Position numbers and translations under genes: made by a program
Notes under the pieces: generated by a model
What the model was told of the DNA's origin: nothing
Seen by the model: the letters and a program-made list of their open reading frames with translations, nothing else
Databases searched by the model: none
Assembly: GCA_030264375.1 (NCBI GenBank)
Contig: JASCQW010000190.1
Coordinates: 24,335,223 to 24,399,222 of the forward strand
Source of the DNA: Carcharhinus longimanus
Taxonomy: Eukaryota
Direction of reading: 5' to 3'
Length of the DNA: 64,000 bases
Shown: piece after piece, positions 3,667 to 59,210 of the stretch
Numbering within the stretch: position 1 is the stretch's first letter
How the letters are laid out: each line of letters starts with the position of its first letter

Positions 3667-4129
3667 NNNNNNNNNNNNNNNNNNNNNNNNNNNNNNNNNN
3701 NNNNNNNNNNNNNNNNNNNATGGGGTTATGTTATTGTTAAGGTTTATTAGTGTTAATAAGGTTTATGAGTAGCAGTAAGGTGTATTATTAGAAAAGCTTT
3801 ATTGGTGAGACATGGAAAGAAGGGGTTGGAGAATCTAATGTTTATTTTATTTTCAAGCATATTTATTGTATTACTAATGTTTAAAATGGTACACTAAGCG
3901 GTGCTGAGGAGAGACATTAATTAAAACGTAACTGAGAAAATAAGTAATTACCAAGCTGGAGATTGGCAGGAAGGAGCAAGAACTTAGCAGGGAATAAAAA
4001 GCAAGCAGCAGGAGTGGAGTATAGGCAAAGTTCAAACTGTGATGTTTGAAATAAAAGGTGATGTTGGCACAAGGGAAGGAGCTGATACATGAATAGTTGG
4101 TGAGAATTTCTATTTTCCAGTCTCACATT

Positions 4130-5090
4130 TAAAATAAATAGTCTATGAAGCAAATAAAGTTAACATATGGCAGGGTAGTTTGGCATGTGAAATGCTCATC
4201 CTGTGACACGTGGGAAGTCATTGACATGCCCTCTGGCCTAGATGACCACACATGCAGGAAGTGTAACAGACTGCAGAAACATGAGCTCCAGGTTTTGGAG
4301 CTTGAGTGATGGCTGGAGTTGCTGTGACACACATCTAGAAAATGAGAACTATGAGGATTACATGTTCAGGGTCACACCACAGGTTAAAAGAGTACAGACT
4401 GTGAAGGAATGGGTGACAGTCCAAGAGGACTAGACAGGTTGTGCAAGAACCTCAATGATCCATTTCATTCACTAACTGGTTTTTCATTTTGGATACTGAA
4501 CAGGGAGATGGTTCCTCAGAGGTGTGCAGCCAAAGCCAAATCCTTGGCACCACGGGTAATACAGCTACATAGGTGGGTGATGAAGAAGAGTGGAAAAGCA
4601 GTGGTGGTTTGGAGATTCAATAGATATGGTTTTGGAATCTGTAGATGCAACTCCAGGATGGTATATTGTCTCCCTGGTGCCAGGGTCAAGGAAGTAACGG
4701 ACCAGCTGCAAGACATTCTTCTGGGGGCTGGTGAACAGTCAGAGATCATGTTCCATTTTGGTATTGAAAACATGGGCAGAAGGAGGTCCTGAAAGCAGAT
4801 TTTAGAAAGCTCAGAAAGACATTAAAAAGCAGAATAATAAGACAGTATCTCAGGAGTACTCCCGATGCCTTGTGCTAAAAACAGGAGGACAGAGCAAATG
4901 AAAGCCTGGCTGGAGAGATGGTGCAGGAGGAAAGGGAAGCTTTAGATATCTGAAGCATTGTTGGTGGTTCTGGGCCAGGTCTGCCCTGTACAAGAAGGAT
5001 GGGTTACAACTTAACAGAACCAGGCCCAATATCCTCACAGGGAGATTTTCAAGTGCTGTTGAGGAGGATTTAAACTAGATGGTCAAGTGG
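4130..5090 (+). mobile_element. CR1/HER1-like LINE ORF1 remnant (Zn-finger plus SGNH esterase)
   Basis: Translates as CSSCDTWEV...HTCRKC and RMVYCLPGARVKEVTDQLQDILLG...MFHFG, typical of CR1 ORF1. Confidence 0.75.
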
Positions 5091-5209
5091 TTGGAACCTG
5101 AGCTGCCTTGTCCCTCTCCTTTGAGGTCAGGAAGTTGGAACATGACTGAGAACTCAGACAGGAGAAAAACAACCCACCCAGACGTCAATAACACTTACCG
5201 TGACTTCAA

Positions 5210-5737
5210 AGGGCTTGGGCCACTGTCTGTGTGAAGTACACACACTCTCCCCTGTCTGCGTGGGTTCCCTCTAGGTTCTCCGGTTTCCTCCACAGTAACA
5301 AATACATAAATACGATGGAAATAGAGGGATAAGATCACCGGAAGGGTAGGGGATTTTAGTTCAGTCGGGCAGCATGGTCGATGCAGGCTTGGAGGGCTGA
5401 AGGGCCTGTTACTGTGCTGTAATTTTCTTTGTTCTCCAGTTTAAAGATGTGTGGGATAGTGGATTGGCCATGCTAAATTACCCCTTAGTGTCAGAGGAAC
5501 TAGCTAGGGTAAATACATTGAGGATAGGGCCTAGGTGCGGTGGTGGTTGGTGCAGACTCGATGGGCCGAATGGACTCCTTCTACACTATAGGATTCTATG
5601 NNNNNNNNNNNNNNNNNNNNNNNNNNNNNNNNNNNNNNNNNNNNNNNNNNNNNNNNNNNNNNNNNNNNNNNNNNNNNNNNNNNNNNNNNNNNNNNNNNNN
5701 GGCCGAATGGACTCTTTCTACACTATAGGATTCTATG
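5210..5737 (+). mobile_element. HE1-like SINE, interrupted by a CR1 3' tail (about 5300-5435) and a gap
   Basis: V-domain at 5215-5295; ggattggccatgctaaatt...gggccgaatgg tail. Confidence 0.7.
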
Positions 5738-6004
5738 ATTATATATATGATCCTGAAGATGTGCATACGATGTTTGGATCGATCTCTCTGGAGTTTATTG
5801 CAAATTCCCTCCTGATCGATCCAAACATCGTATGCACATCTTCAGGACCATATATATAATCATAGAATCCTATAGTGTAGAAGGAGTCCATTCGGCCCAT
5901 CGAGTCTGCACCAACCACCACCGCACCTAGGCCCTATTCTCAATGTATTTACCCTAGCTAGTTCCTCTGACACTAAGGGGTAATTTAGCATGGCCAATCC
6001 ACTA
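5457..6004. repeat. Long inverted repeat (about 190-bp arms, 29-bp spacer at 5785-5813)
   Basis: 5814-6004 is the near-perfect reverse complement of 5457-5600 plus 5701-5784 (the gap flanks overlap). Confidence 0.9.
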
Positions 6005-6240
6005 AACTCCAGAGAAAGTCTCCCACATCATTGTATTCTATTGCGCCCTTTACAAGTTGATGCTTCAAAGGGGGAATCACTTGCCAAAGGGAAAATGGAG
6101 CAGGATAAGAGCTCCTTGGACAATGAAGAGAAAGAAAGCCAGAAATAAGGGTCACTTTCCACACGGCAATGCCATCAAGGATGCACGCTGTGGAAGACAT
6201 GCCTATGCCACATTGATAGCCACAAGGTTCCAGGGGCAGT
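5748..6240 (+). mobile_element. PIF/Harbinger (HARBI1-like) transposase C-terminal relic
   Basis: ILKMCIRCLDRS(GGNLQ*)TPEKVSHIIVFYCAL...LQRG and RHAYATLIATRFQ resemble the HARBI1-type LKxRFRCLDxSGGxLQYxPxKVxxII..CC.LHN C-terminus. Confidence 0.7.
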
Positions 6241-8227
6241 AAGGTAAGGCCAAAGAGAAATGACCACATTCCTCCTGTGCCTTAATGCCTTGCCATTGCA
6301 CTGAAAGGGAGTCATATTGAAAGCAACTTCTGCATTCAGAATTACATCTTCAAACCTCATGATTCAGCAGACCAGGAGCTCTGGAAAGGTCAGTGGTGAA
6401 CCCTGTATCTGTGCGCTCTGGAAAGTGAAAGCTAACACAGCAGTGAAAACGTTGCACTTGATGCAGCTGTAGCCGTCTCAATGACAAACTGCAGCTGATG
6501 GTGAAATGAGTGCATGCTTAGAGATGTCATCATCTCATCAGATGTCCTTTGGAGCTACCACTGAGGAGACACAACGACAGCTAATTCTTCCAGGCTGCTG
6601 AACAGCCCTCACACAAAGCTGTCTCTAAACAGTAAGGATTACATTTCAGATATTATCCACTTCCAGTAAAGGTTCTGACACATCGACCTGACATCACACA
6701 AGTGTCCGATAACTATCTTGAGTGAGGTCAACTGTGAGGCTCGTAAAGGGAGATGATTACTGAATAGGAAGAAGGCTCACCCTCACTATAAGAGGGCACA
6801 CATATGAATATGCACATCAAATGACCAAACCATTCTCATTGACATCAAATGTACTCACAAAAGTGCAAGATTTATACAGTGATTGAACACCCCAGAAGTG
6901 ATGTTAATATTTCTCAATTTTCCTAACCCTACCAGTACACCTGGGTTCAGCTCTGACAAGAGCCAGCCTGCTGACTGTGATGGCCTGTTGTCTGTGATAA
7001 CCTGGATAGATGTGCACTGGTGGCCCCACACCTGGAGGGCCCCAGCCTGATAAGGGGCTCTTGCACTCTCCCCCCATTCCCCCTGCTCCGGCCTGGCCAG
7101 CCAGCATGGATGGAGTCACAGGAAGAAGAGGCTCGGAGCAACTCAACAGCCTTGGTGTGTCCTGTGTGGAGGCTTCCATAGGGTCTGACTGATGCTCGTT
7201 CTCCTTGTGGGTGCCTGAGAACTTCTCCTTGATTCCTTAAGAAGGAGTGGCACCTGCAAGAAGGTCAAGGTGCCCTGCCCCTCTCTCATCTAGCTACTGA
7301 TGGTCCCAATGCAAATCTGGCAAAGCCTGCTGGAGAAGATGTGCAAGGTCGTTGCCGCCCTTCGCACGGTAACCTTGAGGTGCTCACATAACTGAGCCAT
7401 GACAGCAAGCAGAATGCTGAGGGACTCCTCCATCCATTGCTCCAGGCTGCTGAGTGATTCTCCCATCTGTGCCAGATCCTGCAGCCCCTGTCGATGCATC
7501 TCCAGCATTGTCTCAATGGCCACTAACAGATGATCATCATCTGGCTTGGACTCAGTGAGTACCTGATCTCCAGCAGTCCCCTGAGTTCCAGAGACCAGGC
7601 TGCCATTGCCTCCAACTGCTGTGGAGATATGTCACTGAGTGTTCTATAGAAAGTTATTCTGAGCCTACTCTAGAACTATGACCCACCAAGACACATACCT
7701 CTGCTGCTGAGGGTTCTTGGCTCCTCAGCAACTTCCTCTGAAGTGGACTGAGGACTGGGGCTTATGTTTGCCCTTTTGATGTGCCTGGACCTAAAAGAGA
7801 GTAGACAGATTAAGTTCATGAGCAGGCAGAATACAAGATTGCATTTCATTCACTGTAAATGTCAAAACATAATCAATTCATAGAAACCTCATCCATACTA
7901 GGTTGCCAGTAGAAGCCAATCTTGCCTTCCCCACAGGAACAATTTCTGTCCTCCCCATACAACTCTACGGTAGCTCCTTGAGTCTAGTGAGCTCCATCAT
8001 GTTGGTCATCCCTCGTCCCATCTGGGACCTCTCCCTCCTGTGTGGGCAAGCTTGGATCTGTATGAAGACAAATGAGGGAATTGTGGGCTTTGATGTTCAG
8101 CCTTTTAATTGATCACAACTTTGTTTCCTTCAAGTAACCAGATCAAGTCACCGAGTTTTTAAATTCAGACTACATAGTGAAGATGCTGGTAACTAGCCAG
8201 AGTCCAAAATTCAGAAATACACAATAG

Positions 8228-12800: not shown

Positions 12801-15149
12801 CTATTTACACTCTGGGAAGCATTTGTGGAAACACAATGTGACACAAAGTTTTCAGCACCAACTCGCTTACTTTTAAACAAGGTAACCCAGAGCTCTGCCT
12901 GTTTTCTGCTGAGCTTTGCAACACCCCAAGCTCTAAACTATTGCTGCAGGTTTTTTTTACTGACAATGCTCCCTGTACTGTTCTAGATCTTTCCAGGTAG
13001 AGCACATGGTGAGCTTCTTTTCAATGTTGTTTTCTCCAGAATCTTTGTTTCAGTTCCTTCAATGGCTATTACCTCCATCACCAGCTTTGGTGAAGGAATG
13101 TTTTTATCTTCTTAATCCTTTTCAGATGTCTGCAGTGGGATTAACGATTTTTCTATTCTTTTTATTTCTCTAGGAGGTTCCAACCTCCTCATTGTTGGTT
13201 GTCTTTGTGATATTTTTAGAGGATAGGCTTGCAGACCACAAAGGTACAAACAAACAAGAACTTCATTGGAAAGATGTTTACTCTACAGGCTGTTAGGATA
13301 GATTGCCCATTTGCCTGCACAAATGGCTAATGACATCATCAATTCATCACATGATCAGACTCAAAGTGACCTTCTTCCAACTGGGAATAAACATAAATAC
13401 ACAACAACAATAAACACAAATAATTATACCTGAGACTAAACTTCTTAATTCAATTTTCATTCTACAGCCATGCTGTAACCCTATCCCTAGTAAATCAAGC
13501 CAGATACTTGGAAGATTATCCTACTTGGTCTGAGTATTGTTTTAAAGGTTAGTACAAGGGTTGAAATTTCTTGAACGCTGTCTACTACCAGAAAGATTGT
13601 CCCTTCAAATCCTGTTTAATCATCCTGTGGTTGTAAACTCCTAATTCAACACAAGCATTGCTACCATCTTAAGTGTAGCCAAAGCAGGTTAGAACTCTCC
13701 TGCTCCTAGTATTCTTCAACACTGGATTCCTGAATCAAAACCTCTCTCCATATGGAGTGCGTATCAACCATAATTAAGAACATGGAACCCAAAAAAAGCC
13801 CAGCGAGGTCTACATGCACTCACATATAGAGCTGCCCAGGCCCTCCCATACATATAGAGAGGCTGGGGGGGTCAGTTTCTGATTCTCTTGGCACATGTCA
13901 TAGTATGACCAAGTCAGAAATGTCTGCAGCAAGACTAGGCCACCACATTTGGCTCCTGACTAGCATTTTCAACTACAAAATCCCAAGGTGGCCATGGTGT
14001 AATGCCATAAGTTTTGGACATCACCATGAGCGAGGGACAACTCAGGAATTCCAGAAAATGATACCATCCTCAACACTGAGCTTGCCTTTCTTCATTCAGT
14101 AGTGTTTCATTTCACCTGAGGTTTGTCCTCTAAATCCCCCATGTAATATGTTTTCATTTAGATCAGATTGGGTCCTTTTGCATCCAGACCTTTTGCCCTG
14201 CAGACACCAACAAGGTGTCCAAAACTTTGAGGATCATCACGATCCCTTCCACAGCTGGTAATGAAGAAAGGCTCACAGGCAATGTCAGACGACTCAATGC
14301 ATCAGCGTTAGCCATCCGGGTCCCTGGGTGATGCTCTAGGGGGTATTTATAGGCAGCCAATAAGAAGGCCCAATGCTGTATCTGGGTGGGAGTAATAGGG
14401 GTATTAACTTGTCTTCTTTAAAAAGTCTCAGCAATGGATTATGATCAATTACTACGATGGAGCATTTAGGGTAGATGTATTGATAGAATCTTTTGATGTC
14501 AAACACAACTGCCAACCCCTCTTTTGATCTGGGAATGCCTCAGCTCAGAATCCAAGAGGGTCCTAGATGCGTACGCAATAGACTTGTCTGTTCCATCTCT
14601 CCAGCAATGTGCCATTACTGCGCCAACCCTGTAAGGGGAGGTATTCCATATAGGTTAAGGTCCTTTTTGGGGTCAAAATAGGCCGGTAAATTAGAGGACA
14701 AAAGTTGCTGTTTAACACTGCTGTAGCACCTCCTAAGACCACCTTTGATGTTTCCATAGTAGGGTATACAAGGGGACTACTACAGAATATAAATTAGGAA
14801 TAAACTTTCCATTATAATTCATTAACCCAGGAAGGATTTTAGATACATGGGGTTCCTTAGAGTTGGCACCTGCTTGTTGGCCTTCACTTTGTCTTCCACC
14901 CAATAGCCCAAATAGATCATTGCACTTGCTTGGAAGACACATTTTTCCCTGACCTCCAAAAAATAGCCATAAGACCTCTTCCGTGTTTGCTAGGTGTGTG
15001 TGTTCCAAAGTCTTGTGACTACAAAATCATCCAGGTACACTACTAGAGATAATCATGTTCTCCAGGACCTGTTAAAAAATGTTGCATGCAGATGAGACAC
15101 CAAAGGGCAAGCGAATGCATTCTTTTAGGTCTTTGTGCAAATTAATTAT

Positions 15150-16245
15150 CACATATTAATAGAGAAGTGGTACTGGGAAAGTTGATGGAATTGAAGGCGG
15201 AAAAATCCCCAGGACCTGATCATCTACATCCCAGAGTACTTAAGGAAGTGGCTCTAGAAATAGTAGGTGCATTGGTGGTCACCATCCAGGATTCTATAGA
15301 TTCTGGAACAGTCCCTGCAGATTTGAGGGTAGTAAATGTCACTCCAATATTCAAAAAGGGAGGTAGAGAGAAAACAGGGAATTATAGACCAGTAGGCTTA
15401 ACATTGGTGTTGGGGAAAATTCTTGAATCTATTATCAAGGACTTTATAGCAGAGCATTTAGAAAGCAGTGGCAGGATCAGACAGAGTCAACATGGATTTA
15501 TGAAGAGGAAACCATGCTTAACAAATCTGTTGGAATTCTTTGAAGATGTAACTAGTAGAGTTGACAAGGGGGGGATCAGTGGATGTGGTATATTTGGACT
15601 TTCAGAAAGCCTTTGACAAAGTCCTGCACAAGAGATTATCGTACAAGGTTAAAGAGCATAGGATTGGTGAAAGTATATTGAGATGGATAGAAAACTGGTT
15701 GGCAGAGAGGAAACAAAGAGTAGGAATTAATGGGTGCTTTTCAAATTGACAGGCAGTAACTGGGATCAGAGCTGGGACCCCAGCTATTCACAATTTATAT
15801 TAATGATTTGATGAGGGAACAAAACGTAACATCTCAAAAGTTTGCAGATGATACCAAATTGGGTGGGAGGGTGAACTGTGACGCGAATGCAGAGATCCTT
15901 CAGAATGATCTGGATGGGTTGGGTGAATGGGCAAACCAATGGCAGGTGCAGTATAAGTTGGATAAATGTGAGGTTATTTGCTTTGGAAGATAAAAACAAG
16001 AAGGCAGATTACTACCTGAATAGCTGTAAATTGGAAGAGGGGAGTGTGCAGTGGAATCTGGGTGTCCTTGTGCACCAGTCACAGAAGGTAAGCATGTAGG
16101 TGCAGCAGGCGGTAAAGAAGGCAAATGGTATGTTGGCCTTCATTGTGAGGGGTTTCTCTTGGTCAAATGACAAGACTGGCAGCTGAATATGCCAGGGTAT
16201 AAGTGTTTTAGGCGAGGCAGAGGAGGGGCTAGAAGAGGCAGGGAA
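15150..16245 (+). mobile_element. CR1/HER1-like LINE ORF2 (RT) fragment
   Basis: KSPGPD, NYRPV, SQHGF, LDFQKAFDKV and [10 protein letters not shown] in ORFs 15167..15616, 15561..15749 and 15808..15993. Confidence 0.9.
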
Positions 16246-27500: not shown

Positions 27501-30500
27501 ATGCTATGATAGTTTCTTGCATGCAAGAAACTGCAGGGTGATGAACAGTTTAAAATTGTGGATACGTGAAATTAAATTACATATAGGATATCAACTTTGG
27601 CTTAACTATTTTCTCAGCTTAGTAATCAAATTCTTTGTATTCCTACATATAAAACTCAAAATTCGATTTTCCCATTTCTTTGGCCTTTTCCAACTGCATT
27701 TGTGTCTTTAAATATTTTGTATATTTGCACCACTGTTCCATTACTCATTGGCATCCTTCATCATGGCATGTCCCAGGAAGTTCGAAAGAAAATTGTAGTG
27801 GAATACAAAGGAAGAAAATTAGGCTTTTTTTTAAACTTCCCCATCACCATCAAGGACAAATAAATCACATTCATATAGCACCTTTCCTATCTTAGGACTT
27901 TCCAAAACACTGAAGTGCAATCACTATTAGGCATGGGCTCATATTCACTATTTTGTTTTGGCTACACATCTAATTCCCAACCAAGGAACTGCAGCTCAAT
28001 TGTATCTCAGCCACGGTTCCTAATAACAGCCAACCTTCCAACTTGAGTAGGGTTACATTCCATGAAACAATGTGTACTTTTGCATTTGCAAGAAACTACG
28101 TTAAAGCATTCAAATTCTTTTCACATATTCTCTTTAACCGTAGCCATGGTCTATCGCCCTCAATTTTTTGGCAGATTTTGATATGGTTAACTACACCATC
28201 CTTCTCTAATTCTTGTCTTCTGTTGTCTATTTTGGCAGAGCTGACTTTGCTTAGCTGGGTTTATCCTATTTGGCTATAAGCTTATAGCCGGCGTGGTGGG
28301 CTGGTAAGATTGCATACAAGACCAGAAGTTGTGTTCACACCCTGTTTGTCGCTGCCAGAGTTCCCAGCCCTGTTCTGCTGGCAGGATTGGTTTTGTGCCC
28401 AGGAAGGGTACAAATGCTGACCCCTTGCTAGTGATAATAAAGGTTCTACATAAATGCAGATCACTATTACACCACATTAGAGATGCAAACTGATCAACGT
28501 ACATCCAAGATAGCAGGACAATGTTTCAACCATTTTCTGAAATAAAAAAAATGGACCTTGGAGTAGCAGAACAAGTTTATTACTAAACAGCTTTACTTAC
28601 GTGGTGAACCCCAATATTAAGATGTTCTTCCAAATAACTCGAGAGGTTGCCATATCACACAAAGTATACAGACGAGACTGTGTATATTCTCCAAACACGG
28701 AATCCATTTCTGTGGTTGAGGGTGGAAGAGGTGGGAAAGGAGGCAAAATTCTCAATCATGATCTTTAATACACTGAAGGATGATATGCATGCCATATTTT
28801 AAGATGCTCAGAACTTATTTTGAATAGTGTGTCCATTATAACCAAGATTATTAGGAGAAACTCAAAAAATTGCATTTGTTTTCTCTGGAGAGCAGGACAT
28901 TGAGGAGAAATGTGACATTGGTCTCCAAAGTGTTAAAAGTTTTGCCTGCATATTGACTAATTGTCCTCTAAAATAGTCCAGTAAGCATCACAGTCTTACA
29001 AAGGAACTAGTTTGGCCAATACGTATCAACCTTACCAGTGATGCTAATATCCTGAGAATAAACAAATTGCCCTTTACTGGCAACCACGCTTTTCCTTCCC
29101 ATTTGACATACTCTAACTTGTTTCCTAAATCCCATTGCTCCTGTCCCTTCAGAACCTCCGTAACACGTACATCTTTTAGCCAACCATCTTAATATTTGGT
29201 TCTTCAGCAGACAGTATGTGGAGATGCCGGCGTTGGACTGGGGTAAGCAGTCTCACAACGCCAGGCTAAAGTCCAACAGGTTTATTTGGTAGTACAAGCT
29301 TTCGGAGTCTCGCTCTGCTTACATTCACCTGAAGGAGCAAGACTCCGAATAANNNNNNNNNNNNNNNNNNNNNNNNNNNNNNNNNNNNNNNNNNNNNNNN
29401 NNNNNNNNNNNNNNNNNNNNNNNNNNNNNNNNNNNNNNNNNNNNNNNNNNNNAAGTCCAACAGGTTTATTTGGTAGTACAAGCTTTCGGAGTCTCGCTCT
29501 GCTGACATTCACCTGAAGGAGCAAGACTCCGAATAAACCAGTTGGACTTTAACCAGGTGTTGTGAGACTTCTTTTACAGTCTTTGACAGACAACAGTTAA
29601 CAGACTGATAACAGATTTAAAAAATAGACTTTTATTTATATTTCAAATTATGTTGCTCAAGCTTTCCACGTAGCCTCAAAAAATTCTATGAAATGCATTT
29701 TTCATGGAAGGATATTCGAAATATTAACCTGTCTTTGTCCTTCCTGCTGATTTGCTGCATTTCTAGAAGATTTTGTTTCAGATACACATGGATGAAATAG
29801 AATTGCAGATTGCAAGAATAAATTGATAATCACATAATAAACAGGGCATTACTGTGTGTCCTTGTAGAATAATGTAACCAGAAAATGTCCGTGGAAGACA
29901 TTAGCATAGGTCTGAATTGTGGCGATTCAAGGGTGGTGGGAGGAGTACAGGTTTCGATGACTTGCCAGTTTATACAGAACTTCCTACGTGTAGTTAAGTG
30001 GAAAAACAAAATGCACTTTAGGAAACAGACTTGGTGGACTTGTTCTGTACACACCGTTAAAACACTGTTGAAACTCAATTACTTCACCATCCCAAATCAT
30101 GGTGGGTCACCTACCATTAAATACATTGCAGGGAGTGTATAATTCATCATCCATGTTGACACCATTACCAGTTGCTATACCCCGCAGTATTTGCTTACAC
30201 CTCTCAATCTGTCTGGTTGCAAGAAGCCAGCGTGGAGACTCTGGAAATAAAGCTGGAGCACTGTAAATTGTTCAAAAATTAATTTAGTTCCATAAGTAGA
30301 CTAATAAAATGTTACTAAAAATTTCACTGATCCTACTGAAAAAGAAAACAATTCTCCCCCAAAGAAAGATTACAAAAGAAATCAAAAATATCTATTTGTG
30401 CAGTGTACGTACGCTGAACAGTTCATGCACCTTACCATTTTGGGAATTAAACTGGATGGGGATTTAAGGAGATTGAAAATTAAGTGGCTTTAAGGCACCT

Positions 30501-57541: not shown

Positions 57542-59210
57542 TACATAGAACAGTACAGCACAGTACAGGCCCTTCAGCCCTCTGTTGTGCCGAGCTTTGT
57601 CCGAAACCAAGATCAAGCTATCCCACTCCCTATCATTCTGGTGTGCTCCATGTGCCTTTCCAATAACTGCTTGAAAGTTCCTAAAGTGTCTGACTCCACT
57701 ATCACAGCAGGCAGTCCATTCCACACCTCAAGCACCCTCTGAATGAAGAACCTACCTCGGACAGCCTTCCTATATCTCCCATCGTGAACCTTATAGTTAT
57801 GTCCCCTAGTAACAGCTACATCCACCCAAGGAAACAGTCTTTGAACGACCGCTCTATCTATCCCCCTTATCATCTTATAAACTTTTATTAAGTCGCCTCT
57901 CACCTCCTCCGCTGTAAAGAGAAAAGCCCAAGCTCCCTCAAACTTTCCACTTGAATGACAACCTTCAGAGATCTGTGGATACAAGCCCAAGATCTCTCTG
58001 TTCCTCCACATTCCTCAGAACCCTCCTGTTGACCCTATAATCCACATTCAAATTTGTCCTACCAAAATGAATCACCTCGCACTTATCAGGGTTAAACTCT
58101 GCCACTTTTCAGCCCAGCTCTGCATCCTATCAATGTCTCTTTGCAGCCTACAACAGCCCTCCACCTCATCCCCTACTCCACCAATCTTGGTGTCATCAGC
58201 AAATTTACTGACCCACCCTTCAGCCCCCTTCTCCAAGTCATTGGTAAGAATCACAAATGGCAGAGGACCCAGCACTAATCCCTGTGATATACGGCTGGTA
58301 ACTGGTCTCCAGTCTGAACATTTTCCATCCACCACCACCCTCTGTTTTCTATGAGACAGCCAGTTACTTATCCAATCGGCCAAATTTCCCTCTATCCCAC
58401 ACCTCCTTACTTTCTTCATGAGCCTACCATGGGGAACCTTATCAAACGCCTTACTAAAATCCATGTATACAACATCAACTGCTCTACCTTCATCCACACA
58501 CTTAGTTACCTCCTCAAAGAATTCAATCAAATTTGTGAGGCAGGACTTACCCCTCATGAAACGTGCTGACTATCCCGGATTAAACTGCATCTTTCCAAAT
58601 GATCATAAATCCTATCTCTCAGGACTCTTTCCATTAACTTACCAACCACCGAAGTAAGACTAACTGGCCTATAATTACCAGGGTCATTCCTGTTTCCTTT
58701 CTTGAACAGAGGAACAACATTCGCCACTCTCCAGTCCTCTGGCACAATCGCTGTGGACAGTGAGGACCCAAAGATCAAAGCTAAAGGCTCTGCAATCTCA
58801 TCCCTTGCCTCCCAAAGTATCTCGGATATATCCCATCTGGCCCAGGGAACTTGTCGACCTTCAGGTTTTTCAAAATTACGAATACACCTTCCCTCAGAAT
58901 ATCTACCTCCTCCATCTATCAGCCTGTATCTCACTCTCATCCTCAAAAACATGGCCCCTCTCCTTAGTGAACACTGAAGAAAAGTATTCATTCAACGCCT
59001 CTCCTGTCTCTTCTGACTCCATGCACAAGTCCCCACTACTATCCTTGACTGGCCCTAACCTGACCCTGGTCATTCTTTTATGTCTCACATAAAAGAGTAA
59101 AAAGCCTTGGGGTTTTCATTTATCCAACCCACCAAGGACTTCTCATGCCCCCTCCTAGCTCTGCTAAGCCCTTTTTTACACTCATTCCTAGCTACCTTGT
59201 AACCTTGAGC
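57542..59210 (-). mobile_element. CR1-like LINE ORF2 (RT to 3' end), relatively young
   Basis: GKSCLTNLIEFFEEVT...YMDFSKAFDKVPHGRL...KFADDTKIGG (ORF 58072..58557); PEDWRVANVVPLFKKG. Confidence 0.9.

What the first reader, a model, noticed from the sequence alone, without database searches (positions are those of the whole stretch)
5457..6015. Inverted duplication that reconstructs as a replication template-switch event, creating a ~190-bp hairpin
Seen in sequence: 5814-6004 is the near-perfect reverse complement of the upstream SINE tail plus flank. 5785-5797 (tctctggagttta) is also the exact reverse complement of 6003-6015 (taaactccagaga). Reverse-complementing the 29-bp spacer restores ...gatcgatc-aggagggaatttgcaa-taaactccagagaaagtc..., which reads LKMCIRCLDRSGGNLQ*TPEKVSHII, a contiguous Harbinger transposase motif. 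Inference: synthesis stopped at the palindromic GATCGATC, switched to the opposite strand about 30 nt downstream, copied about 220 nt backwards into the SINE, then returned through a TA microhomology (template-switch/FoSTeS-type mutation). A few arm mismatches argue against a pure assembly echo. The product could form a cruciform or a dsRNA hairpin.
Basis: partly seen in the sequence, partly recalled or inferred. Interest (0 to 1): 0.7.

Follow-up and report, generated by a model that had tools for sequence, protein, structure and literature searches.

The report
Inherited inverted duplication in dead transposon
About 200 bases of dead transposon DNA were copied backwards into their own neighbourhood, likely by a polymerase switching strands during DNA copying; close relatives share the resulting long inverted repeat and three more distant relatives keep the old order, so it is a real, probably harmless and unusually long example of a known kind of mutation.

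Summary
The inverted duplication is real and inherited. Arms of 191 nt (2-3 mismatches) flank a 29-nt spacer, and 5785-5797 is the reverse complement of 6003-6015. Its pre-event reconstruction is right: paralogous transposase remnants keep that order, and single contigs from three more distant organisms (3 studies) show it at this locus. The new right-hand junction appears in 4 closer runs (one may be the source sample) and weakly in a fifth, so it is not an artefact. As assembled it is a four-point template switch of type 3-1-4-2 (3% of ape events) with a long 220-nt tract. The mechanism is less settled than claimed. Flipping the spacer gives identical 31-mers and a commoner type (3-2-4-1, fold-back), and the assembly conflicts at the site that would phase it. 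The TA microhomology is chance-level (0.17), the first junction has none, and a role for GATCGATC is not shown. A weak 7-bp stem centred in the spacer is an equally good clue. No host exon or function was found. New, long, polarised member of a known mutation class; probably neutral.

The parts
5212..5296 (+). 5' part of a 5'-truncated SINE copy; it lacks the tRNA-like head that other copies carry (family name HE1-like and A/B-box labels are recalled, not tested)
   Evidence: most hits start near 5210; other copies have about 60 nt more of head
5297..5435 (.). Second repeat fragment inserted inside the SINE; not part of the event
5457..5600 (+). Left arm (segment a), outer part; SINE 3' half; switch point 3 at 5457-5459
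   Evidence: 143 of 144 nt complementary to 5861-6004
5601..5700 (.). 100-N assembly gap; flanks overlap by 37 nt with one mismatch, so the true gap is probably zero
5701..5784 (+). Left arm, inner part: SINE tail (5701-5737 repeats 5564-5600) plus 47 nt of flank, mostly transposase remnant, ending in GATCGATC; new junction J1 at 5784|5785 with 0 nt microhomology
5785..5797 (-). c': inverted copy of 6003-6015
5798..5813 (-). b': the 16-nt ancestral segment, present once, inverted as assembled
5790..5808 (+). 7-bp stem (6 Watson-Crick pairs, 1 G.T, 5-nt loop) centred exactly in the 29-nt spacer; -1.9 kcal/mol
5814..6004 (-). Right arm (a'), the new 191-nt inverted copy; junction J3 at 6002-6005 with a 2-nt TA overlap
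6003..6015 (+). c: the 13-nt segment that is duplicated
6016..6260 (+). Continuation of the decayed DDE_Tnp_4 (Harbinger-type) transposase remnant; matches to paralog loci continue patchily to about 7700

Best explanation
This is a real, inherited 202-nt gain in a dead transposon-plus-SINE, likely made in one germ-line event when a DNA polymerase left its template, copied about 220 nt of the opposite strand backwards and rejoined the original template (four-point template switch, type 3-1-4-2), and it is probably neutral. Shown: ancestral order a-b-c-R (a 191 nt, b 16, c 13); derived junctions in close relatives; ancestral order in three outgroups. Read from the assembly only: the product order a-c'-b'-a'-c-R. 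Inferred: one event rather than two, replication rather than break repair, an inter-strand switch, and a weak 7-bp stem between switch points 1 and 2 that would bring them face to face and so allow a switch with no microhomology. Which strand was being synthesised cannot be told. Odds: real and inherited 0.97; templated synthesis with two switches of either geometry about 0.8; this exact geometry 0.5.
For: Outgroup contigs hold the pre-event order in one record: X7 (minus 5785-5886, then plus 6016-6500), X18 (minus 5785-5884, then plus 6016-6500), X14 (plus 5798-5876 with minus 6003-6500), each with 79 letters or more on both sides. Derived junction J3: contigs of X1, X2, X3, X5 run from SINE sequence at 5976-5979 into the flank; X9 from 5991. 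Loop junction J1, indirect: X3 record 17 is 117 nt = 44 + 29 + 44 and overlaps record 18 by 30 nt; X1 and X2 contigs break exactly at 5814; X2 arm depth is 21.9 against about 8 in the flank. Paralogs: 21 of 29 loci align across both junctions, 7 of 29 without any gap over 51 nt; in those 7 the spacer matches 18.6 of 29 nt reversed against 8.3 as assembled. One event explains all three junctions with no extra letters. Type 3-1-4-2 is documented: 1% of human-chimp events, 3% of ape gold-standard events. Two to three arm differences fit 1.9-4.7 expected from flank divergence. Overlapping gap flanks with a mismatch are usual in this assembly (9 of 13 overlapped 100-N gaps, ours included), so the 5578/5715 conflict may be an ordinary allele or error.
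Against: Spacer orientation is unconfirmed: both orientations give the same 31-mer set when the arms are alike, and the flipped type (3-2-4-1 with its mirror) is commoner in apes, 11% against 3%. J1 has no microhomology and J3 only 2 nt (chance 0.17). No derived contig has 31 letters on the SINE side of J3 (24-27 for X1, X2, X3, X5; 12 for X9), which is below the tool's own bridging rule, and the letters across J1 were not displayed in any run. X1 may be the source sample. X5 shows no depth in 5785-5825 and X9 none in 5738-5841. A 220-nt tract exceeds the ape maximum of 128 nt, though that search was limited to 100 nt around each cluster. The centred stem is weak (-1.9 kcal/mol), post hoc, and has an A.C mismatch on the other strand. 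Staggered breaks give the same product.
Confidence: 0.5

Rival explanations
1. Intra-strand fold-back (type 3-2-4-1, or snap-back end joining). The true or original order is a-b-c-a'-c-R: the nascent or broken 3' end after c folded back on the small b-c stem, copied a for 191 nt, then re-annealed at the start of c through TA, leaving a 13-nt direct repeat. The spacer was later flipped by recombination between the arms, or was placed backwards by the assembler.
For: Same junction words as the assembled form. The left contig end links 5523 G to 5578 C, the letter that sits on the arm joined to b, which is what this orientation predicts. Commoner type in apes, 11% against 3%; Walker et al. report many '4 before 1' events. 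The centred stem predicts the register of the switch (703 of 200,000 random 29-mers; 961 of 60,000 within 2 nt). Snap-back synthesis is described for Pol theta (PMC2943611 passages; PMC11292364 abstract).
Against: The assembly's right contig runs unbroken from 5701 to beyond 6016 in the other orientation. On the strand that would fold back the stem has a central A.C mismatch and the last 5 nt are unpaired, whereas Pol theta needs two terminal pairs. Mismatched gap overlaps are common here anyway.
Confidence: 0.27
2. Break repair without a fork switch: a 16-bp micro-inversion with staggered nicks (191 and 13 nt), filled in and joined, or microhomology-mediated break-induced copying from the sister chromatid.
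For: [quoted passage not shown] A blunt J1 fits end joining. A break-repair route is proposed for human-chimp microinversions (PMC8755829 passages).
Against: Needs four nicks within 220 bp, or two breaks 16 bp apart, which PMC8755829 calls highly unlikely for about 20 nt. No lost or added letters at any junction. The break-induced model needs pre-existing flanking inverted repeats, which the ancestor lacked.
Confidence: 0.14
3. Capture of a lagging-strand fragment: the stalled leading 3' end was ligated to the 5' end of the facing Okazaki fragment (no homology needed at J1), and that fragment's 3' end returned to the leading template at TA.
For: Tract length 220 nt is near eukaryotic Okazaki scale (initiation zone 100-200 bp, PMC7999016 passage); J1 has 0 nt of homology; leading-to-lagging switching is proposed in ODIRA (PMC10766183, search listing only).
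Against: One locus; 55% of random junctions have no microhomology; requires the assembled orientation.
Confidence: 0.05
4. RNA-templated copy: a SINE read-through transcript was reverse-transcribed into a break at its own locus.
For: The insert is the reverse complement of SINE sense strand plus 3' flank.
Against: This copy lacks the tRNA-like head; no poly(A) or terminator at the tract end; orientation matches by chance half the time.
Confidence: 0.02
5. Assembly or library artefact (fold-back chimera at a gap edge).
For: A 100-N gap lies inside the left arm; X1 may be the source sample; no raw or long reads were available.
Against: The J3 junction is in runs of studies P2 and P3 whose flanks differ from the window by about 1%, weakly in P5, and in none of three more distant organisms; no laid run showed both forms in the pieces listed.
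Confidence: 0.02

Closest known systems
Four-point template-switch mutation, type 3-1-4-2 (Loytynoja and Goldman 2017, PMC5453318; Walker et al. 2021, PMC7954356)
   Same: Two new inverted repeats around an inverted spacer; inserted tract is the reverse complement of adjacent ancestral DNA; ancestral state seen in outgroups.
   Different: Tract of 220 nt against a median of 12 and maximum of 128 in the ape gold set; human haplotype data reach 318 nt overall and 97-180 nt outside repeats (PMC9435742), so it is long but inside the known range. Different vertebrate lineage. Spacer orientation not independently phased.
Type 3-2-4-1 / 4-1-3-2 (inverted plus direct repeat) and snap-back SD-MMEJ (PMC7954356, PMC2943611)
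   Same: Identical junction words if the spacer is flipped; small stem beside the switch.
   Different: Needs the spacer in the orientation opposite to the assembly; 191 nt is far longer than the insertions in the passages read.
Staggered-break inversions with inverted duplications (Ranz et al. 2007, PMC1885836)
   Same: Inversion flanked by inverted duplications at both ends.
   Different: Those are large chromosomal inversions; here the inverted single-copy core is 16 bp.
Template-switch-born miRNA hairpins (Monttinen et al. 2023, PMC10710096)
   Same: A perfect hairpin made in one mutation.
   Different: Stem of 191 bp against the preferred 35 bp; no host transcript known; no Rfam match at threshold.

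Membership tests
Four-point template switch (any type) | Inserted fragment is the reverse complement of nearby ancestral sequence | tested here: met
Four-point template switch (any type) | Ancestral state known, and one pair of switches rebuilds the descendant | tested here: met
Four-point template switch (any type) | Arose during DNA replication | not testable with these tools
   The model is mechanism-agnostic; one locus cannot show it
Type 3-1-4-2 | Spacer inverted, two inverted repeats (point order 3-1-4-2) | tested here: inconclusive
   True as assembled; orientation invisible to 31-mer contigs; conflict at 5578/5715
Classical quasi-palindrome correction (Ripley) | [quoted passage not shown] | tested here: not met
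   Ancestor had only a 7-bp stem 5 nt inside points 1 and 2; no pairing at J1
FoSTeS/MMBIR (features recalled) | Microhomology at each new junction | tested here: not met
   J1 0 nt; J3 2 nt, chance 0.17
Harbinger-type transposon remnant | DDE_Tnp_4 transposase | tested here: met
   Paralog L026:1155-1445 scores 42.2 bits, E 8e-11; window pieces match it 12 of 17 and 14 of 33 aa; the window's own 6006-6209 frame has no Pfam hit. The link from DDE_Tnp_4 to Harbinger is recalled.
Harbinger-type transposon remnant | Terminal inverted repeats, 3-bp target duplication, second Myb-like gene | not tested
   Element ends not sought
miRNA precursor | About 35-bp stem, or match to a curated family | tested here: not met
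   191-bp stem; four miRNA rows at 33.6-50.5 bits, all below gathering scores of 73-80
miRNA precursor / endogenous siRNA source | Transcribed and processed to small RNA | not testable with these tools
   No RNA run to lay
Library or assembly chimera | Confined to one library | tested here: not met

The most novel reading that the evidence does not exclude
The 220-nt tract is a whole lagging-strand (Okazaki) fragment spliced into the leading strand at a fork paused by a tiny cruciform, with no homology at entry. Long 3-1-4-2 events would then be a fossil record of Okazaki-fragment length and fork direction in slowly evolving germ lines, readable genome-wide from near-perfect hairpins fixed across related species.
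Probability: 0.05. Interest if true: 0.7.

Novelty: new member of a known kind. Interest (0 to 1): 0.27.

Why it matters
Modestly. It is a clean, outgroup-polarised case of a rare template-switch type with a tract near the long end of those described, outside the primates and yeast where the papers found studied it. A 191-bp, 99% identical inverted repeat with a 29-nt spacer has persisted while flanks diverged by 1-2%, with no sign of arm homogenisation. It can serve as a one-off clade marker for organisms A, B and probably D against C, F and G. It also shows that a gap inside a hairpin need not mean an artefact, and that short-read data cannot tell inter-strand from fold-back events once the arms are long. 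No function is indicated.

Tried and rejected
No RNA holder listed among 22 runs; not used as evidence. Rfam: 5 rows, all below gathering score; read as generic hairpin matches. Host gene: 148 of 166 non-repeat frames of 58 aa or more gave one Pfam hit, an RT RNase H domain; short exons would be missed, so intronic status is open. tRNA scan: none. Family consensus containing the palindrome: rejected; 1 of 29 paralog loci has any inverted repeat of 25 nt or more near the match, and it lies at another position. Second SINE insertion: rejected. Gene conversion or selection on the arms: not needed. Polarity of the 5523/5938 mismatch: undecidable, other copies split 25 T to 23 C. Microhomology at J1 restored by an older flank sequence: rejected, X7 and X18 break exactly at 5785/6016. 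and protein 4 used a frame off by one base; repeated correctly. Earlier-findings look-ups by words and near this place returned nothing. A library search for shark + template switch + inverted repeat gave 7 papers, none on this topic by title or abstract start; most subscription journals are not covered.

Full report
Observation. The arms are 5457-5600 with 5861-6004 (144 nt, one mismatch) and 5701-5784 with 5814-5897 (84 nt, two mismatches), with 29 nt between them; 5785-5797 is the reverse complement of 6003-6015. Its flanks repeat 37 nt with one mismatch (5578 C, 5715 T), so the left arm is 191 nt once the gap is collapsed. The genome is 2.68 Gb in 68,774 pieces.

Anatomy. Write the ancestor as a (191 nt: SINE 3' half plus 47 nt of flank), b (16 nt), c (13 nt), R. 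The assembly reads a, c', b', a', c, R: 422 nt in place of 220, a net gain of 202 nt. Junction J1 (5784|5785) has no microhomology; J3 (6002-6005) shares TA, with 4 of 5 letters alike. The right arm matches this SINE copy at 99.3%; the best of 57 other hits is 80.5%. The host is a decayed transposase: paralog L026 scores E 8e-11 on DDE_Tnp_4, and window pieces on both sides of the event match it (12 of 17 aa; 14 of 33 aa).

Ancestral state. Of 29 paralogous loci, 21 align across both junctions of the reconstructed order and 7 do so with no gap over 51 nt; in those 7 the spacer matches 18.6 of 29 nt reversed and 8.3 as assembled. At the orthologous locus, three more distant organisms carry the reconstructed order in a single contig: X7 (organism C; flank 12 differences in 485), X18 (G) and X14 (F; 33 differences plus gaps each).

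Is it real? I laid 8 of 22 listed runs, all as assembled contigs; no raw or long reads were offered. Contigs of X1, X2, X3 and X5 run from inverted SINE sequence across J3 into the flank. X1 is identical to the window over 1022 nt and may be the source sample; X2, X5 (one study) and X3 (another) differ by about 1%. X9 (organism D, 10 differences in 510) begins at 5991 and probably has J3. These contigs carry only 24-27 letters (12 for X9) on the SINE side, below the tool's 31-letter bridging rule; that is where a contig should stop on entering a high-copy repeat. J1 is supported indirectly: X3 record 17 is 44 + 29 + 44 nt, X1 and X2 contigs break exactly at 5814, and X2's arm depth is 21.9 against about 8. 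X5 and X9 show no cover of the loop, which the tool says proves nothing. Four sites group D with the window against C, F and G (6057, 6091, 6259, 6446); two conflict (6051, 6155). One origin after the split from C is the simplest reading. Two to three arm differences fit the 1.9-4.7 expected.

Mechanism. As assembled, the switch points fall in the order 3-1-4-2, which makes two inverted repeats around an inverted spacer: 1% of human-chimp events (PMC5453318) and 3% of ape gold-standard events (PMC7954356 S1 Table). Point 2 lies ahead of point 1, so the switch would be inter-strand. The type is its own mirror, so the direction of synthesis cannot be read. The 220-nt tract is long: ape median 12, maximum 128; human haplotypes up to 318, and 97-180 outside repeats.

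The main caveat is the spacer's orientation. Flipping it gives a, b, c, a', c, R, which is type 3-2-4-1 (inverted plus direct repeat; 11% with its mirror; can arise intra-strand). Both forms have the same 31-mers when the arms are alike, so cannot separate them. The site that would phase the loop to the flanks is the one where the assembly disagrees with itself. Against over-reading this: 13 of 86 100-N gaps have overlapping flanks and 9 of those 13 carry a mismatch. I put 0.5 on the assembled geometry and 0.27 on fold-back.

Sequence clues are weak and post hoc. TA or more occurs at 17% of random junctions. An 8-nt palindrome occurs at 1194 of 313,439 sampled sites, but GATCGATC supplies no pairing at J1. 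The spacer itself has a 7-bp stem exactly at its centre (5+7+5+7+5), seen in 703 of 200,000 random 29-mers and in 961 of 60,000 if 2 nt of slack is allowed; it would place points 1 and 2 face to face under either geometry, but it is only -1.9 kcal/mol and has an A.C mismatch on the other strand. Staggered-break inversion gives the same product, and break repair has been proposed for microinversions.

How common? In 101 stretches (1,064,000 letters, 121,487 of them N; window included) 29 rows of short-spaced inverted repeats were listed; outside this site none at 93% or more was longer than 68 nt. I read 9 places: 7 belong to one palindromic repeat family, one is a tail-to-tail retroelement pair across a gap, one showed nothing clear. 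No second event like this one was seen, though the other rows were not read.

Function. No host exon was found (short exons not covered), Rfam matches are below threshold, and the SINE copy lacks its head. The stem is far longer than the 35 bp preferred for miRNA precursors. Longer arms and shorter spacers raise instability; a 12-bp spacer stalled forks in eukaryotes and a 52-bp spacer did not, so 29 nt is intermediate. Neutral persistence is the simplest reading.

What I saw of each paper: PMC5453318, passages and section 6 whole; PMC7954356, passages, S1 Table whole, part 1 of 28 of one data file (its per-event alignment file was too large to read and may hold longer 3-1-4-2 cases); PMC9435742, PMC8755829, PMC1885836, PMC2943611, PMC7999016, passages; PMC10710096 and PMC11292364, abstract and outline; PMC10766183, search listing only. 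FoSTeS features, the SINE family name, promoter-box labels and the Harbinger label for DDE_Tnp_4 are recalled.

Verdict. A real, inherited, well-polarised and unusually long member of a known mutation class. Interest 0.27.

Noticed in passing
L032:4032-4302, L033:7992-8280, L099:5560-5807, L107:6871-7215; decayed copies L085:5184-5265, L119:1957-2113 and 7644-7674: A palindromic repeat family with 41-54-nt arms, a one-sided tail and 12-nt flanking direct repeats; four young copies all contain a 100-N gap. A 12-nt motif from it occurs 43 times in the 1.06-Mb sample and not in the window.
   Followed up: partly
window 5297-5435: A second repeat fragment sits inside the SINE, between two similar 7-9-nt ends that may be a decayed target duplication.
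   Followed up: partly
window 3720-5200: No match to the transposase paralog loci upstream of the SINE; 4700-5100 is a different old repeat. The 5' part of the transposon and the SINE head appear to be lost.
   Followed up: partly
window 29353-29452: Another 100-N gap whose flanks overlap by 84 nt with one mismatch, with a weak 45-nt inverted repeat around it.
   Followed up: no
window 14339-14539 (-), 15146-15613 (+), 58075-58991 (-): Decayed reverse-transcriptase pieces: RT_RNaseH E 2e-5, RVT_1 E 6e-5, RVT_1 E 5e-18.
   Followed up: no
window 5818 and 5830, run X7: Organism C has G-to-A changes at two CpG sites, one of which breaks the GATCGATC palindrome; no such change is listed for F or G.
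   Followed up: no
L040:2842-3217: Two retroelement tails in inverted orientation, 68 nt at 95.6%, on either side of a 231-N gap.
   Followed up: no
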